64,000 nucleotides of DNA, taken from IMG/VR virus record IMGVR_UViG_3300032240_001244, positions 23,182-87,181 of that record. The stretch is one strand, 5' to 3'. This document shows, piece by piece, positions 3,850 through 39,107 of the stretch (positions are counted from its first letter, which is position 1; each line of letters opens with the position of its first letter). The position numbers and the translations under genes are program-made. The notes below the pieces were generated by a model. That model was not told the origin of the DNA and ran no database searches. It was given only the letters and a program-made list of their open reading frames with translations. The stretch is from a virus.

Positions 3850-4968
3850 ATGGCAGATTCAAAGAACATTAAAGGTGCTGTAGCAAGCGCTTTAGGTAAA
3901 GGTGTATCCTTTAATTTAGAGAATTTTAAGAAATCAAAGAATTTAACTGAAAATATCGCCTATAAGAAACAAGAATGGATTCCATTATCAGAAGCTTTTC
4001 AACAGGCAATAAGTTTGCCAGGACTTCCTCATGGGCACGTTATTAATCTTAGAGGTCATAGTGATACCGGAAAAACTACAGCACTTATCGAAGCAGCTGT
4101 TAGCGTGCAGAAGATGGGCAAACTCCCAGTCTTTATCATCACTGAGATGAAATGGGATTGGAGTCATGCCAAGATCATGGGATTTGAAGTAGATACTAAA
4201 GTGAATCAAGTAGTAAATGAGGATACAGGAGAAGTTACTCAAACAATATCTTATGAAGGCAACTTTATTTACATAGATAAGGATAGTATAACTACCGTAG
4301 AAGATGTAGCTGCCTTTATCATGGATTTACTTGATGAACAAGCAAAAGGAAAGCTTCCCTATGATCTTGTATTTCTTTGGGATTCAGTAGGATCCTTACC
4401 ATGTAAGATGTCTATAGAATCTAACAAAAATAATAATGAGTGGAACGCAGGAGCTATGTCTCAACAGTTTGGAAATTTTATAAATCAAAGAATTGTTGGT
4501 TCTAGAAAAGAAAGCTCTAAGTATACAAACACGCTTATTGCTGTAAACAAAGTATGGGTAGAAAAACCAACTACATATGGTGAGATGCCTAAGCTAAAGA
4601 ACAAAGGAGGAAACACAATGTTCTTTGACTCTACAATAGTAGTAACTTTTGGTAATTCTACTGGAGCAGGTACCAACAAGATCAAAGCCACTAAAAATGG
4701 TAAAGATGTTGAGTTTGCAAAAAGGACTAAGATTGCAGTGGACAAAAATCATATCAATGGTGTAACTACCACTGGTAAAATTATTGCAACTCCCCATGGA
4801 TTTATCATAGATGATAAAAAATATATTGACGCTTATAAGAAAGAACATTCAGCAGAGTGGTTGAAAATTCTTGGAAGCGAAGACTTTGATATAATAGAAG
4901 AAATAGATAATGGTGATATGATAGATAATCATGGAGATGCTACCATTAATAATTTAGGAAATGAATAA
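3850..4968 (+). CDS. RecA/UvsX-like recombinase
   Basis: Walker A GHSDTGKT, Walker B-like FLWDSVGS, GG...F and KNH/DKN C-terminal RecA features. Confidence 0.85.
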   Translation: MADSKNIKGAVASALGKGVSFNLENFKKSKNLTENIAYKKQEWIPLSEAFQQAISLPGLPHGHVINLRGHSDTGKTTALIEAAVSVQKMGKLPVFIITEMKWDWSHAKIMGFEVDTKVNQVVNEDTGEVTQTISYEGNFIYIDKDSITTVEDVAAFIMDLLDEQAKGKLPYDLVFLWDSVGSLPCKMSIESNKNNNEWNAGAMSQQFGNFINQRIVGSRKESSKYTNTLIAVNKVWVEKPTTYGEMPKLKNKGGNTMFFDSTIVVTFGNSTGAGTNKIKATKNGKDVEFAKRTKIAVDKNHINGVTTTGKIIATPHGFIIDDKKYIDAYKKEHSAEWLKILGSEDFDIIEEIDNGDMIDNHGDATINNLGNE

Positions 4969-34738: not shown

Positions 34739-34750
34739 AGTTCTTTGAAA
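34739..34750 (+). promoter_or_regulatory. boxA-like antitermination sequence
   Basis: AGTTCTTTGAAA just after a TATCTTTA promoter-like octamer, upstream of the ncRNA/tRNA island. Confidence 0.45.
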
Positions 34751-34798
34751 TAAAAAAGGTCGGCATGAACCGACCTATTAAAAGTAAAAGCAATAAAA

Positions 34799-34960: not shown

Positions 34961-35031
34961 GTTTGTTTGTTTTAATTAAAAATGCGTACCTTGTGGTACA
35001 CATATAAATATCTAAAAAATTAAAAATAATT

Positions 35032-35265
35032 AGCCCGAAGGCCACGGGATCGAAAATTCAGGAATGCCTCTCTAATTGCCTTGAGATAGTATCGACTAGG
35101 ATTACGAAGCACACTGCTCCTCTAGATCGTTAGCTAGCGGTGTAAAGCAATCCCACTGGAAAATAGGATTGCAAATAAGGTTGATTGGGATGAATGCAAG
35201 TGCATCATCGGTTAGAAATGCCAATCGTAAAAGCAGGTGTCCACGCACCCATCTCCTGCTTTCCT
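35032..35265 (+). ncRNA. candidate structured non-coding RNA(s), unassigned
   Basis: GC-richer ORF-free stretch with stems ACACTG/CGGTGT, GCAATCC/GGATTGC, GATTGG/CCAATC, GATG-ATGCA/TGCAT-CATC, AAAGCAGG/CCTGCTTT. Confidence 0.55.
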
Positions 35266-35369
35266 AAAATTATTGAGAGAAGAAGACGAAAGTGATTTTA
35301 TGGTCAGTGTACATATTCCATAGATAGCTCCTGACTACTAAACTATTTAATAATTAAAACAAAACAAAA

Positions 35370-37244: not shown

Positions 37245-37805
37245 ATGATCAAATTTAATGCCGAATTAAAAAAACAAATAATCGACATTTACAATAAAAA
37301 TGGTATTTTTTTAGAGGGTAATATTCTTAAACTCATAGATGCTGAAAACGATAATCAATTTAAAGATTATCTTGAGAGGGCGATTAATAACGACAAAGAA
37401 ACCAGAAAAAAAAGATTAGATGTTACAAAACAAATTCAATCTCAAAATAAAGAATTGGTTGCAGCGCAGGAAAATAATTCTAAATTAATGGCAGAGCTCA
37501 CTGAAGCTCTACAAAAGGCTGAACGTGCAAAAAAAGACGCAGAAGATGATTTAGACTTATTACAAAAGAAGACCCAAACTGAGTTAATTGGAACAATCGT
37601 TAAAGTTGCTCTTGCTATTGTTATAGGCATAGGCGTTATGACCACTCTGTTATTTGCTACTGCATTTTTTTTAAATAAAGACACTACCTTATTAGGTAAT
37701 GCCTGGTCAAACATGTTTGGAATACTATTAACAAATTCTTTTAGTATTATTGGTACTATTATGGGAGTTAAGTATGCGACTGAAAATGGAAAAACTAAGA
37801 CTTAA
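37245..37805 (+). CDS. coiled-coil protein with two C-terminal TM helices
   Basis: Long heptad region, then two hydrophobic segments. Confidence 0.7.
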   Translation: MIKFNAELKKQIIDIYNKNGIFLEGNILKLIDAENDNQFKDYLERAINNDKETRKKRLDVTKQIQSQNKELVAAQENNSKLMAELTEALQKAERAKKDAEDDLDLLQKKTQTELIGTIVKVALAIVIGIGVMTTLLFATAFFLNKDTTLLGNAWSNMFGILLTNSFSIIGTIMGVKYATENGKTKT

Positions 37806-37813
37806 TAAATTTT

Positions 37814-37934
37814 GACACGCACGGCAACCGAAAGCATACTAGACACTGCTTAGGCAATGCGAGCAATCACGAAGAATACCTCACAGTGCGTAGGTAAGCT
37901 CTAAGTTCTTCTGACCGTGGGGAAAGGCCCATCA
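37814..37934 (+). ncRNA. candidate structured RNA A
   Basis: Stems AAGCA/TGCTT, GAAGAA/TTCTTC, TACCT/AGGTA, possible pseudoknot GAGC/GCTC; ends TGAC-..-TGGG GAAAGG CCCA. Confidence 0.5.
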
Positions 37935-37937
37935 TAT

Positions 37938-38028
37938 AGTCAGGTGGCGGAATGGTATTCGTTACAATGTGGGAAGACCCCTGCAACGTTCTAAAACCAC
38001 ACTACAGGTTCGAATCCTGTCCTGGCTA
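37938..38028 (+). ncRNA. tRNA-like RNA 1 without a canonical anticodon arm
   Basis: Acceptor AGTCAGG/CCTGGCT-A, D-arm GCGGAATGGTATTCGT, T-arm ACAGG-TTCGAAT-CCTGT; 41-nt middle has no 5-bp/7-nt anticodon arm. Confidence 0.72.
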
Positions 38029-38030
38029 CG

Positions 38031-38149
38031 AGGGGAAAGTAACTTAAAGGGAGCCCCAAATGGAGAATCTGTAAAATCTTTCTAGGTTATATACAGTGCG
38101 ACCGCCGGTAAAGATCTCAGCAAGTGACACACGGGGAGAGACCCGACCA
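38031..38149 (+). ncRNA. candidate structured RNA B
   Basis: Stems GGGG/CCCC, TGGAGA/TTTCTA, GGTT/GACC; ends TGAC-..-CGGG GAGAGA CCCG-ACCA. Confidence 0.5.
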
Positions 38150-38228
38150 AGTCAGGTGGGCGTAATGCGGGATGGTTCCCAAGTCCAATAGAATGGTTGC
38201 TTATCCGGTTCGAGTCCGGCCCTGACTA
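38150..38228 (+). ncRNA. tRNA-like RNA 2 without canonical D or anticodon arm
   Basis: Acceptor AGTCAGG/CCTGACT-A, T-arm CCGG-TTCGAGT-CCGG; middle forms small hairpins GGGA/TCCC and CCA/TGG. Confidence 0.7.
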
Positions 38229-38564
38229 CGCTGTTGTTCTTTGACATATAAGGAGAATCAAATTATGGATACATTATCATTCGCTTTAGGGATTGCGACT
38301 GTGGTGGTTATTGCTATTGCAATAGTTGCTGTTTATGCTTTCTTTAAGGTAAGAGAAGTAAAACAAGACAATAGTCTTTTTATTATGGATTTAGATAAAA
38401 GATTTGAAGATTTATATAACCTTCTAGGTAGAAATGAAGAAGCAATAAATCGGAAAATATATGAAGTAGAGCGAGATGTATACTCTGCATTAGACTCAAG
38501 ATTAGATAAACTAGAAAGTAAATTAACAATTAAAAAATAAAAAATAAGTTAAAGAACAACAGCG
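38229..38564. repeat. 17-bp inverted repeat (38229-38245 / 38548-38564) enclosing an ORF; left arm contains boxA-like TGTTCTTTGAC
   Basis: CGCTGTTGTTCTTTGAC pairs with GTTAAAGAACAACAGCG (16 Watson-Crick + 1 G.U). Confidence 0.85.
38265..38540 (+). CDS. membrane-anchored coiled-coil protein
   Basis: AGGAG at 38251-38255, ATG 38265, N-terminal TM helix, coiled-coil tail. Confidence 0.72.
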   Translation: MDTLSFALGIATVVVIAIAIVAVYAFFKVREVKQDNSLFIMDLDKRFEDLYNLLGRNEEAINRKIYEVERDVYSALDSRLDKLESKLTIKK

Positions 38565-38567
38565 CCC

Positions 38568-38641
38568 GGACTTATAGCTCAGTCGGTTAGAGCATCTGAC
38601 TCATAATCAGAGGGTCCCTGGTTCAAGCCCAGGTGAGTCCA
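38568..38641 (+). tRNA. tRNA with CAT anticodon, probably tRNA-Ile2 (lysidine), otherwise elongator Met
   Basis: GGACTTA/TGAGTCC-A acceptor, GCTC/GAGC D-stem, TCTGA-CTCATAA-TCAGA anticodon arm, CCTGG-TTCAAGC-CCAGG T-arm; CCA not encoded. Confidence 0.92.
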
Positions 38642-38671
38642 CTAAAATTTATTAAACATAAAATAAAAACT

Positions 38672-38878
38672 ATGAAAAAACCAATCACCATTCTATTTTT
38701 TTTATTATTGACATTAATTTCCAGTTGTTCAGTATATGTAAAGCCTGCTGTATGGAAACTAAGGCATGGAAATAGGACTACTTATGGATACTGGAGATGC
38801 CCATCTGTAAACCCTTATAGACATCAGTTTAAAATGGTGAGAAAGAAAGCTTTTAAAATAAGACTAATTAAACATTAA
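38672..38878 (+). CDS. small basic lipoprotein-like protein
   Basis: ATG 38672, lipobox LISSC. Confidence 0.55.
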   Translation: MKKPITILFFLLLTLISSCSVYVKPAVWKLRHGNRTTYGYWRCPSVNPYRHQFKMVRKKAFKIRLIKH

Positions 38879-38882
38879 TAGC

Positions 38883-39107
38883 ATGAAAGCAACACTAGAA
38901 TTCGATCTGCCAGATGATCAAATAGATTTTGATTTTGCAACTAAAGGGCAAAAGTATTACAGCACTCTTTGGGAAATGGATCAATGGTTGAGAAGTCAGA
39001 TAAAATATAACGAGAAGCTAACTGATGAACAACATGATACATACGAAGCGTGTAGAGATCAGCTTAGAGAAATAATGAATGATAATAGTGTATCCTTTGA
39101 TGATTAA
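38883..39107 (+). CDS. hypothetical phage protein
   Basis: MKATLEFDLPDD... Confidence 0.7.
   Translation: MKATLEFDLPDDQIDFDFATKGQKYYSTLWEMDQWLRSQIKYNEKLTDEQHDTYEACRDQLREIMNDNSVSFDD

What the first reader, a model, noticed from the sequence alone, without database searches (positions are those of the whole stretch)
38229..38567. mRNA enclosed in a 17-bp terminal stem exactly between two tRNA-type processing sites
Seen: CGCTGTTGTTCTTTGAC starts at the first base after the discriminator of tRNA-like RNA 2. Its complement ends 3 nt before the tRNA(CAT). Between them lies a 91-aa membrane-anchored ORF with a clear AGGAG, whereas most genes here have no SD. The left arm contains a boxA-like sequence. 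Known: rRNA operons use boxA-containing leader/trailer helices for Nus-assisted folding and RNase III cleavage. Inference: RNase Z plus RNase P cleavage would release an mRNA with paired ends (stabilised, possibly circularisable). Alternatively the stem loops out an inserted gene so the tRNA operon still matures.
Basis: partly seen in the sequence, partly recalled or inferred. Interest (0 to 1): 0.7.

Follow-up and report, generated by a model that had tools for sequence, protein, structure and literature searches.

The report
Phage mRNA closed by boxA helix
A small phage membrane-protein gene is wrapped in a conserved RNA helix whose first strand copies the host's ribosomal-RNA "boxA" signal and which, inside tRNA gene arrays, sits flush against the neighbouring tRNAs, so the message probably ends up with sealed, paired ends; I found no earlier description of this arrangement.

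Summary
The 17-bp stem (38229-38245 / 38548-38564, 16 Watson-Crick pairs plus 1 G-U) is one of only two inverted repeats of its class in the 64-kb window.

The stem travels with the enclosed gene family. Hundreds of uncultured phage and metagenome contigs carry relatives of the 91-aa ORF. Nearly all that I could test keep an enclosing helix.
- The outer half covaries across 81 distinct arm pairs.
- Internal mismatches are G-U type 55 times and A-C type 3 times. The helix is therefore selected as RNA on the sense strand, not as a DNA repeat.

The inner 5' strand is conserved as GTTCTTT[G/a]A[C/t/a]A. This matches the motif I found about 120 nt upstream of 16S in 67 of 87 Bacteroidota rRNA leaders, and it matches published boxA consensus sequences.

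In 41 of 51 loci a tRNA-type 3' end lies directly before the left arm. In 18 of 51 a tRNA starts 2-5 nt after the right arm. The remaining 10 loci have no flanking tRNA and still keep the helix.

The most likely function is an rRNA-style closing helix that fixes and protects the mRNA ends, probably with Nus-factor involvement. Processing and binding are inferred, not shown. The scan's first readers noted the same architecture on another genome.

The parts
38150..38228 (+). tRNA-like RNA 2: acceptor stem AGTCAGG/CCTGACT, T-arm, discriminator A38228. Presumed RNase Z-type 3' processing site.
   Evidence: Sequence and fold. Not called by ARAGORN or Rfam. The homologous position in L096 holds a true tRNA-Leu(taa).
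38229..38249 (+). 5' (left) arm of the closing helix: 17 bp core 38229-38245 plus a 3-bp extension 38247-38249.
   Evidence: Covariation.
38236..38246 (+). boxA-type core GTTCTTTGACA, the inner half of the left arm.
   Evidence: The phage position frequencies equal those of the Bacteroidota 16S-leader motif.
38249..38255 (+). Shine-Dalgarno TAAGGAG. AAGGAG begins 3 nt after boxA; 9 nt separate the SD from ATG. Unpaired in the folds.
   Evidence: It is exceptional in this genome: 0 of 52 other ORFs have AGGAG or GGAGG.
38265..38540 (+). ORF of 91 aa: N-terminal transmembrane helix, coiled coil, invariant C-terminal DSR-DKL core (the window reads DSRLDKLESKLT). Function unknown.
   Evidence: Synonymous variation in the motif codons is visible. 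1129 cluster representatives at E<=1e-3.
38544..38564 (+). 3' (right) arm of the helix, core 38548-38564. It starts 7 nt after the stop codon.
38565..38567 (+). 3-nt spacer CCC, the RNase P leader of the next tRNA.
   Evidence: The spacer is 2-5 nt in 17 of the 18 loci with a downstream tRNA. The 18th reads -3 because of an over-extended arm.
38568..38642 (+). tRNA-Met(CAT).
   Evidence: ARAGORN; Rfam RF00005 71.2 bits.

Best explanation
This is a gene-specific, conserved long-range RNA helix of the rRNA leader-trailer type. It closes the mRNA of a small phage membrane protein into a loop.

Shown: the helix is selected as RNA on the sense strand. Its inner 5' strand keeps a host-type boxA sequence 3 nt before an unusual strong SD. 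In tRNA islands the helix begins -1 to 5 nt (mostly 0-1) after a tRNA-type 3' end and ends 2-5 nt before the next tRNA.

Inferred:
1. The cassette is transcribed as part of a largely non-coding tRNA or ncRNA operon.
2. boxA, which emerges about 300 nt before its complement, recruits NusB/S10. This carries the polymerase through the only unstructured stretch or tethers the 5' arm.
3. When the 3' arm appears the helix forms.
4. RNase Z-type and RNase P cleavages of the flanking tRNAs then leave an mRNA whose 5' phosphate end is base-paired and whose 3' end has only a 2-5 nt overhang.
5. Such ends should resist 5'-end-dependent RNases and 3' exonucleases, and the helix keeps the mRNA from interfering with tRNA folding.
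6. In the 10 loci without tRNAs, a terminator precedes the helix by about 15-20 nt, so the helix probably again sits at the 5' end of a new transcript.
For: The helix is conserved.
- 50 of 53 testable unique flank sets from IMG/VR have at least 13 contiguous pairs enclosing the ORF.
- Duplex energy averages -30.3 kcal/mol, against -18.7 for mismatched partners and -13.2 for shuffles.
- 67 of 77 testable metagenome loci also have it.

The helix covaries. On a 41-sequence alignment, 91 cells changed on both sides against 33.4 +/- 7.2 in shuffles (0 of 500 reached it). Slid controls gave 14-30. Nine of the 12 outer pairs covary.

The strand test points to RNA. In 81 distinct arm pairs, internal mismatches are G.T/T.G 55 and A.C/C.A 3 under scoring that treats both kinds alike.

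The boxA match holds.
- The phage position frequencies are G T T C T T T [G/a] A [C/t/a] A. The 16S-leader motif of Bacteroidota is G T T C [T/A] T T [G/a] A [A/C] A.
- That leader motif is present in 67 of 87 leaders, against 4 of 87 on the reverse complement and 2.8 (maximum 8) in shuffles. Its median position is -119.
- Published consensus sequences are GYTCTTTAANA (PMC5725501, passages) and UGCUCUUUAACA / AUGAUCUUUGAAA (PMC13753749, passages).

The helix is flush with tRNAs.
- 24 of 51 loci have an ARAGORN tRNA or tmRNA ending -1 to 5 nt before the arm.
- 18 of 51 have a tRNA within 5 nt after the right arm. The gap is 2-5 nt in 17; one over-extended arm reads -3. Fourteen loci have both.
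- 16 of the other 27 have a T-arm plus acceptor 3' strand directly upstream by my pattern, and one more (L066) by eye.
- The flanking tRNAs differ between phages (Ser/Glu, Gln/Glu, Leu/Ala, Thr/Asp, Arg/Ser, Leu/Met and others), so the geometry is kept rather than the neighbours.

No intrinsic terminator lies between the tRNA-like units, the cassette and tRNA-Met.
Against: - No transcript data exist. No RNA run holds the sequence, so no end is mapped.
- The 3' side is less uniform than the 5' side. In several loci a separate terminator or the next gene follows the right arm, so 'paired ends' cannot be the whole story there.
- boxA is buried in the finished helix, whereas in the rRNA operons I examined it stays unpaired. 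Binding by NusB/S10 would have to be transient.
- One clade (L030, L247, L252, L253, L258, L261, L262) has lost the boxA core but keeps the helix. boxA is therefore not essential.
- The window's upstream element is only tRNA-like, so RNase Z cleavage there is an assumption.
- The host is inferred (SD avoidance, boxA type), not shown.
Confidence: 0.5

Rival explanations
1. The helix is primarily an RNase III site. As with pre-16S and pre-23S rRNA, it is cut on both strands to excise the mRNA from a polycistronic precursor. The neighbouring tRNAs are incidental.
For: The architecture copies rRNA leader-trailer helices, which carry the RNase III site (PMC10250234, abstract and passages). The helix is also kept where no tRNA is near and where the next gene follows directly. 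Those loci need an endonuclease to make a 3' end. Helices there reach 23-25 bp with a bulge.
Against: The contiguous helix is mostly 16-22 bp. That is at or below the roughly two helical turns usually needed (recalled). The tight 0-1 nt and 2-5 nt spacing to tRNA ends, kept across different tRNA neighbours, has no purpose if cleavage is inside the helix. No phage RNase III was found in the 87-kb record, although the host enzyme would do. My comparison of helix length between tRNA-flanked and stand-alone loci gave no significant difference.
Confidence: 0.2
2. The helix is a boxA / anti-boxA switch. While the RNA is nascent, NusB-S10 on boxA, 3 nt from the SD, blocks ribosome entry as in suhB and makes the polymerase Rho-resistant. 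Pairing with the 3' arm then displaces the Nus factors and licenses translation of finished transcripts only.
For: boxA lies 3 nt before AAGGAG, compared with 6 nt in suhB, where Nus factors repress translation (PMC5725501, passages). The complement of boxA is conserved at the 3' end, unlike in the rRNA operons examined. The SD itself stays unpaired in the folds. The boxA core is present in 50 of 54 unique flank sets.
Against: Only 32 of 54 relatives have an SD. One clade lacks boxA but keeps the helix. There is no biochemical evidence, and Nus-factor behaviour in Bacteroidota is unstudied as far as my searches show.
Confidence: 0.15
3. The pairing is a hok-type lock on a toxic small membrane protein mRNA. 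The 5'-3' pairing keeps the full-length mRNA inert until 3' trimming activates it.
For: The product is a small membrane-anchored protein. PHROG hits to holin and Rz-like spanin families are weak (E 0.004 and 7e-4). The 5'-3' end pairing is the hallmark of hok-like mRNAs (recalled, no call).
Against: The protein is 80-140 aa with a long coiled coil and a conserved C-terminal motif, unlike type I toxins. The pairing does not cover the SD or the start codon. No antisense gene or conserved antisense promoter was seen, though I did not search for one systematically.
Confidence: 0.05
4. The arms are terminal inverted repeats of a small mobile DNA cassette that inserts between tRNA genes.
For: The cassette lies between many different tRNA pairs and also outside tRNA arrays.
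Against: Mismatches are 55 G.T-type against 3 A.C-type. That asymmetry is expected for RNA pairing and not for DNA repeats. The outer termini, which a transposase would read, are the variable part, and the inner part is conserved. No transposase, no direct target duplications seen by eye, and no other cargo in the same arms. The exact left arm occurs elsewhere in IMG/VR only in unrelated coding sequence (8 loci).
Confidence: 0.03

Closest known systems
Leader-trailer (processing) helices of bacterial pre-16S/pre-23S rRNA with boxA and the rrn antitermination complex
   Same: Complementary flanks enclose the cargo. The sequence varies but pairing is kept. The length is near the more-than-17-bp threshold reported for E. 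coli (PMC10250234). A boxA of the host type lies on the 5' side. A tRNA follows the 3' strand, as tRNA-Ile follows 16S. In 35 Bacteroidota operons the segment right after boxA pairs with the 16S trailer (-28.5 against -17.3 kcal/mol shuffled).
   Different: The cargo is a 240-370-nt protein-coding mRNA, or two ORFs in L015. The element is phage-borne and sits in tRNA arrays. boxA lies inside the helix at the cargo-proximal end and is paired, whereas in the rRNA operons examined it is unpaired upstream of the helix. A strong SD follows 3 nt later.
[quoted passage not shown]
   Same: A consensus boxA lies a few nucleotides upstream of an SD: 6 nt in suhB and 3 nt here. L085 and L094 match GYTCTTTAANA exactly.
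   Different: No 3' complement is described for suhB in the passages I read. The context here is a phage tRNA island, and binding is untested.
tRNA punctuation of mitochondrial transcripts (mRNAs released by RNase P and RNase Z; PMC8601606, abstract seen in the listings)
   Same: The mRNA is directly flanked by tRNAs, so tRNA excision would define both mRNA ends.
   Different: This is a bacterial virus. The mRNA ends are additionally base-paired to each other. The helix persists without tRNAs in 10 of 51 loci.
5'-terminal stem-loop stabilisers and 5'-3' paired mRNAs (ompA 5' hairpin, hok fbi/tac), recalled from memory with no call
   Same: A base-paired 5' end with at most a few unpaired nucleotides. 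In hok the 3' end pairs with the 5' end.
   Different: The pairing partner is the mRNA's own 3' flank about 300 nt away. There is no SD occlusion, no antisense RNA, and the sequence contains boxA.

Membership tests
boxA (NusB-NusE/S10 binding RNA element) | Sequence matches the boxA consensus of the (likely) host group | tested here: met
   The phage position frequencies (49 of 54 unique loci) are G T T C T T T [G/a] A [C/t/a] A. The motif in 67 of 87 Bacteroidota 16S leaders is G T T C [T/A] T T [G/a] A [A/C] A.
boxA (NusB-NusE/S10 binding RNA element) | Lies in the transcribed leader, 5' of the cargo and next to a long-range helix | tested here: met
   It lies 19 nt before ATG and forms part of the 5' arm. 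The rRNA motif lies immediately 5' of the leader strand of the helix.
boxA (NusB-NusE/S10 binding RNA element) | Single-stranded and available in the mature fold | tested here: not met
   All 11 nt are paired in the MFE and centroid folds. In the rRNA operons examined the 11-mer is not paired with the trailer (3 of 35 against 3.1 expected). It would be free only while nascent.
boxA (NusB-NusE/S10 binding RNA element) | Binds NusB-S10 and modifies RNA polymerase | not testable with these tools
   Needs EMSA, ChIP or reporter assays.
rRNA-type leader-trailer processing helix | Complementary 5' and 3' flanks enclosing the cargo, maintained by compensatory change | tested here: met
rRNA-type leader-trailer processing helix | Cargo is a ribosomal RNA | tested here: not met
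   The cargo is a translated ORF under protein-level selection: synonymous changes in the conserved C-terminal motif and 1129 relatives.
rRNA-type leader-trailer processing helix | Cleaved by RNase III | not testable with these tools
   No transcript data. No phage RNase III in the record.
tRNA-punctuated mRNA | tRNAs directly abut both ends of the mRNA | tested here: inconclusive
   In the window, a tRNA-like element sits 0 nt upstream and tRNA-Met 3 nt downstream. Across 51 loci, 14 have ARAGORN tRNAs on both sides and 41 have a tRNA-type 3' end upstream: 24 by ARAGORN, 16 by my T-arm pattern and 1 by eye. Ten loci have none.
tRNA-punctuated mRNA | mRNA ends coincide with RNase Z and RNase P cuts | not testable with these tools
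   No RNA holder was listed.
Type I toxin mRNA with 5'-3' lock (hok-like) | Pairing sequesters the SD or translational activator; small hydrophobic toxin; antisense RNA | tested here: not met
   The SD and start codon are unpaired. The protein is 80-140 aa with a coiled coil. An antisense RNA was not searched for systematically.
TIR-bounded mobile DNA cassette (MITE-like) | Inverted repeats selected at DNA level (strand-symmetric mismatches), conserved termini | tested here: not met
   55 G.T-type against 3 A.C-type mismatches. The outer termini are the variable part.
Any Rfam family | Match to a curated covariance model | tested here: not met
   Only tRNA hits in 37600-38900 at E<=10, and no family for the cassette. 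The whole window at gathering score gives tRNA and a group I intron only.

The most novel reading that the evidence does not exclude
The cassette is a miniature pre-rRNA mimic that ties a phage gene to the state of the host's ribosome-making machinery. It combines three signals that a Bacteroidia cell otherwise reserves for ribosome biogenesis. The first is boxA, read by NusB and S10. The second is a leader-trailer helix. The third is a strong SD, which in Bacteroidia is read only by ribosomes lacking bS21. On this reading the gene is transcribed by a Nus-modified polymerase not coupled to ribosomes. The boxA / anti-boxA pairing then ejects the Nus factors and seals the ends. Only finished, tRNA-punctuated transcripts are translated, and only by SD-competent (bS21-free) ribosomes. 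A bolder side branch is that the juxtaposed 5'-phosphate and 3'-OH ends are ligated into a circle.
Probability: 0.12. Interest if true: 0.85.

Novelty: new variant of a known kind. Interest (0 to 1): 0.7.

Why it matters
If the reading holds, this would be, as far as my searches found, the first case of a protein-coding message packaged like a ribosomal RNA precursor. It has a boxA and a leader-trailer helix, and it would be released by tRNA-processing enzymes in a bacterial virus.

It would give a natural, compact module for making end-protected mRNAs from non-coding operons. It would extend boxA and Nus-factor biology to phages of Bacteroidota, where neither boxA nor rRNA antitermination appears in any paper my searches returned.

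It also offers a simple test bed of about 340 nt, with dozens of natural compensatory variants, for how long-range helices form co-transcriptionally. The element is abundant: at least 383 metagenome loci and 1129 protein clusters. It is absent from Rfam and from the papers I could search.

Tried and rejected
- **Exact left arm elsewhere.** A scan of IMG/VR gave 8 loci, all inside unrelated coding sequence. The arm sequence itself is not a repeated element.
- **Known phages and genomes.** blastn of 37800-38700 against cultured phages matched only the tRNA-Met. tblastn of the ORF against 50,697 phage records gave no match. The motif-seeded scan of 185,579 species genomes found 19 stretches, none confirmed. 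Relatives that lack the C-terminal motif would be missed.
- **Other cargo in the same stem.** None was found in the window or in loci L010-L112. The only other hits were mirror images of the same cassettes and chance matches.
- **Other boxA copies in the window.** The 10-nt motif with 1 mismatch gave 45 matches against 31 +/- 4.9 expected. Exact sense-strand copies are at 4620 (coding) and 34740 (before a terminator hairpin). Neither has a partner.
- **RNA evidence.** No RNA holder was listed. I did not lay the two runs that hold 0.05 of the words. The metagenome scan returned only contigs longer than 1 kb, so contig ends say nothing about RNA ends.
- **Helix length.** The comparison between tRNA-flanked and stand-alone loci was a crude count with no significant difference.
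- **Phage-encoded enzymes.** RNase III, RNA ligase, RtcB and bS21 were not found in the 87-kb record, which is 51% complete.
- **Protein function.**
  - No Pfam family scored above its cut-off. DUF4446 and DUF948 each matched 11 of 36 members weakly.
  - PHROG hits were weak.
  - The Atlas returned only viral hypothetical clusters, with a 0.83 lead to Mu-like releasin.
  - I did not fold the protein.
- **Promoter reading.** I rejected a sigma-70 promoter reading of TTGACA in the left arm. The scan reports no promoter-like site there, and no -10 follows by eye.
- **Literature.** Searches returned no description of a boxA-bearing helix around a phage mRNA or of tRNA-punctuated phage mRNAs.
Full report
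**1. The observation**

The window is part of an 87-kb IMG/VR phage record that is 51% complete. I read the sequence directly.
- CGCTGTTGTTCTTTGAC occupies 38229-38245. It begins at the base after discriminator A38228 of a tRNA-like element (38150-38228).
- Its partner GTTAAAGAACAACAGCG occupies 38548-38564.
- CCC follows, and then tRNA-Met(CAT) at 38568-38642 (ARAGORN; Rfam 71.2 bits).

The pairing is 16 Watson-Crick pairs plus one G-U. It extends by 3 bp after an A-A mismatch. Between the arms lie TAAGGAG (38249-38255) and a 91-aa ORF (38265-38540).

The helix closes both the MFE and the centroid structure of 38229-38567 (z = -4.09). It survives when both flanking tRNA-type elements are folded with it. 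In the whole 64-kb window only two inverted repeats of this class exist, and the other is an AT-rich palindrome. No intrinsic terminator separates the tRNA-like units, the cassette and tRNA-Met.

**2. The helix belongs to the gene family and is conserved as RNA**

The exact arm occurs elsewhere in IMG/VR only by chance, inside unrelated genes. The ORF, however, has many relatives.
- 6 with the single protein.
- 164 with a profile, of which the best 80 were kept.
- 1129 cluster representatives at E<=1e-3 in the 1.84-billion-protein library.

Of 82 IMG/VR loci, 54 have unique flanks and 53 were testable. Fifty of these have at least 13 contiguous pairs between the 60 nt before ATG and the 60 nt after the stop. 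Mean duplex energy is -30.3 kcal/mol. Arms paired with another locus's partner give -18.7, and shuffles give -13.2. The exceptions are as follows.
- L015: one helix encloses two tandem paralogous ORFs between tRNA-Glu and tRNA-Thr.
- L072: my ORF start was probably mis-set.
- L074: the arm is 11 nt.

In the metagenome set, 67 of 77 testable loci pass a stricter score that counts Watson-Crick pairs only. Of the 80 loci, 2 had no ORF by my rule and 1 had a short flank.

The outer 7-10 bp differ almost freely between loci and always in concert. Examples are CGCTGTTG, AGTTACCG, GACTGCTG, GGCTACTG, ACATTATCG and ACGTCGTCG. On a MAFFT alignment of 41 sequences, which misaligns about ten of them in the arms, 91 cells are changed on both sides. 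Shuffles gave 33.4 +/- 7.2 (0 of 500 reached the observed value) and slid controls gave 14-30. Nine of the 12 outer pairs covary.

I then scored G.T and A.C mismatches alike. The 39 plus 42 distinct arm pairs contain 55 G.T/T.G internal mismatches and 3 A.C/C.A. That asymmetry is what RNA pairing on the sense strand predicts. It argues against a DNA-level inverted repeat.

**3. The inner 5' strand is a boxA-type sequence**

The cargo-proximal 11 nt of the left arm are conserved. In the 49 of 54 unique loci where my fuzzy pattern places the motif, they read G T T C T T T [G/a] A [C/t/a] A. The 9-nt core with at most 1 mismatch is present in 50 of 54.

Published consensus sequences are as follows.
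- GYTCTTTAANA for gamma-proteobacteria (PMC5725501, passages).
- UGCUCUUUAACA for E. coli and AUGAUCUUUGAAA for B. subtilis (PMC13753749, passages).
- L085 and L094 (GTTCTTTAACA) match the first exactly.

The window's genes avoid SD sequences. Three of 52 ORFs have a 4-mer core against an 11.6% background, none has AGGAG or GGAGG, and the upstream 20 nt are 51% A. That is the Bacteroidia pattern (PMC7797042 and PMC13000457, abstracts in the listing). I therefore collected Bacteroidota rRNA operons with a group-specific 16S probe.
- In 67 of 87 16S leaders, a motif within 2 mismatches of the phage core lies at a median of -119 from the 27F site.
- The reverse complement gives 4 of 87, and shuffles give 2.8 (maximum 8).
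- Its position frequencies, G T T C [T/A] T T [G/a] A [A/C] A, coincide with the phage's at every conserved position.

The boxA likeness is therefore real at the sequence level, and it fits a Bacteroidota host. The host remains an inference.

There is one difference. In those rRNA operons the segment just after boxA pairs with the 16S trailer (35 operons, -28.5 against -17.3 kcal/mol shuffled). The boxA 11-mer itself does not pair (3 of 35 with at least 10 of 11 pairs, 3.1 expected). In the phage, boxA is inside the helix.

One clade (L030, L247, L252, L253, L258, L261, L262) has replaced the core by CTCTAATTGAC, with compensating changes in the 3' arm. The helix therefore matters more than boxA.

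**4. Relation to tRNAs**

Among 51 loci:
- An ARAGORN tRNA or tmRNA ends -1 to 5 nt, mostly 0-1 nt, before the left arm in 24.
- A tRNA starts within 5 nt after the right arm in 18. The gap is 2-5 nt in 17, and one over-extended arm reads -3.
- Both hold in 14.

Of the other 27 loci, 16 have a T-arm plus acceptor 3' strand directly upstream by my pattern. L066 has one by eye. Ten have an intrinsic-terminator-like hairpin and T-run about 15-20 nt before the arm. Thirteen loci have no ARAGORN tRNA within about 1.5 kb.

The neighbours differ between phages: Ser/Glu, Gln/Glu, Leu/Ala, Thr/Asp, Arg/Ser, Asp/Gln, Met/terminator and tmRNA/cassette. In the closest relative, L096 (89% identity in a neighbouring protein), the arrangement is tRNA-Leu(taa), then a helix with nearly the same arms and an 80-aa ORF, then tRNA-Met.

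The constant features are the helix and its position at the very 5' end of what would be the processed or primary mRNA. The 3' side is more variable. It may be a tRNA, a separate terminator, or the next gene.

**5. The most likely mechanism**

Shown: a sense-strand RNA helix under selection; boxA-type sequence 3 nt from an exceptional SD; and flush geometry with tRNA ends.

Inferred:
- The cassette is co-transcribed with tRNAs.
- RNase Z-type and RNase P cuts leave an mRNA with a paired 5' end and a 2-5-nt 3' overhang.
- Such ends should escape 5'-end-dependent RNases and 3' exonucleases. That is established knowledge of RNase E/J and PNPase/RNase II/R, recalled and with no call.
- The helix also keeps the AU-rich mRNA from disturbing tRNA folding.
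- boxA, free for the roughly 300 nt of transcription before its complement appears, may load NusB-S10. That could carry the polymerase through the only unstructured, possibly untranslated stretch of the operon. It could also hold the 5' arm for pairing, as proposed for rRNA (PMC10250234, passages).

The rivals are RNase III excision, a suhB-like boxA/anti-boxA translational switch, a hok-like lock, and a mobile DNA cassette. The first two are compatible with much of the evidence. The last two fail specific tests. I put 0.5 on the end-defining and end-protecting helix with probable Nus involvement.

**6. The protein**

It has an N-terminal transmembrane helix followed by K/R residues, which suggests that the C-terminal coiled coil is cytoplasmic. 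That is my inference from the positive-inside rule. The residues D77, S78, R79, D81, K82 and L83 are invariant in 36 sequences. The codons of this motif vary synonymously, so the ORF is real. No family gives a function.

**7. Comparison with what is known, and novelty**

The parts are known: boxA, leader-trailer helices, tRNA punctuation and 5' stem stabilisers. Their combination around a phage mRNA is not in Rfam. It is also not in the papers my seven searches returned. Subscription journals and supplementary files were not searchable.

First readers of this scan noted the same architecture on another genome (e1-5908617, e1-5908624). No follow-up is recorded in those notes. I class the element as a new variant of a known kind, with interest 0.7.

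Noticed in passing
window 38249-38255 and whole window: The genome avoids Shine-Dalgarno sequences. Three of 52 ORFs have a 4-mer core against an 11.6% background, and none has AGGAG or GGAGG. The cassette ORF has TAAGGAG, and 32 of 54 relatives keep a 5-mer SD. In Bacteroidia only ribosomes lacking bS21 read SDs (PMC9976891), so this gene may be translated by a special ribosome pool. No bS21 gene is in the record.
   Followed up: partly
window 37806-38228; L096 2780-3185: There are two units of a roughly 100-130-nt conserved leader plus a tRNA-like element. tRNA-like 1 (37938-38028) scores 32.1 bits on Rfam tRNA with a 32-nt insert in place of the anticodon arm. In L096 the second unit ends in a true tRNA-Leu(taa) behind the same leader. 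The leaders start right after a TTTG, which may be a Bacteroidota -7 promoter element.
   Followed up: partly
window 35030-35290 = L096 2520-2780: A conserved non-coding stretch of about 260 nt that looks structured lies upstream of the signalling genes. It has no Rfam family at gathering score.
   Followed up: no
   Followed up: partly
window 38672-38878: A small lipoprotein-like ORF (signal peptide ending LISSC) follows tRNA-Met directly. In L096 a two-TM 56-aa ORF holds that place, so it is not conserved.
   Followed up: no
L015 2628-3384: One helix encloses two tandem paralogous TM/coiled-coil ORFs (103 and 120 aa). They lie between tRNA-Glu and tRNA-Thr, with gaps of 1-2 nt on each side.
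   Followed up: yes
L113-L232 (Bacteroidota rRNA operons): A boxA-type motif G T T C [T/A] T T [G/a] A [A/C] A sits at a median of -119 before 16S in 67 of 87 leaders. The leader strand of the leader-trailer helix follows it directly. None of the papers my searches returned describes this for Bacteroidota.
   Followed up: partly
L038 2539-2609: ARAGORN calls a suppressor-type tRNA (anticodon tta) in a related phage's tRNA island. tmRNA genes with long tags lie next to the cassette in L017, L019, L024, L025, L028, L036, L085 and L094.
   Followed up: no
window 34740-34775: A second sense-strand copy of the boxA-like core (GTTCTTTGAA) lies in an intergenic region just before a terminator-like hairpin. 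It has no complementary partner.
   Followed up: no
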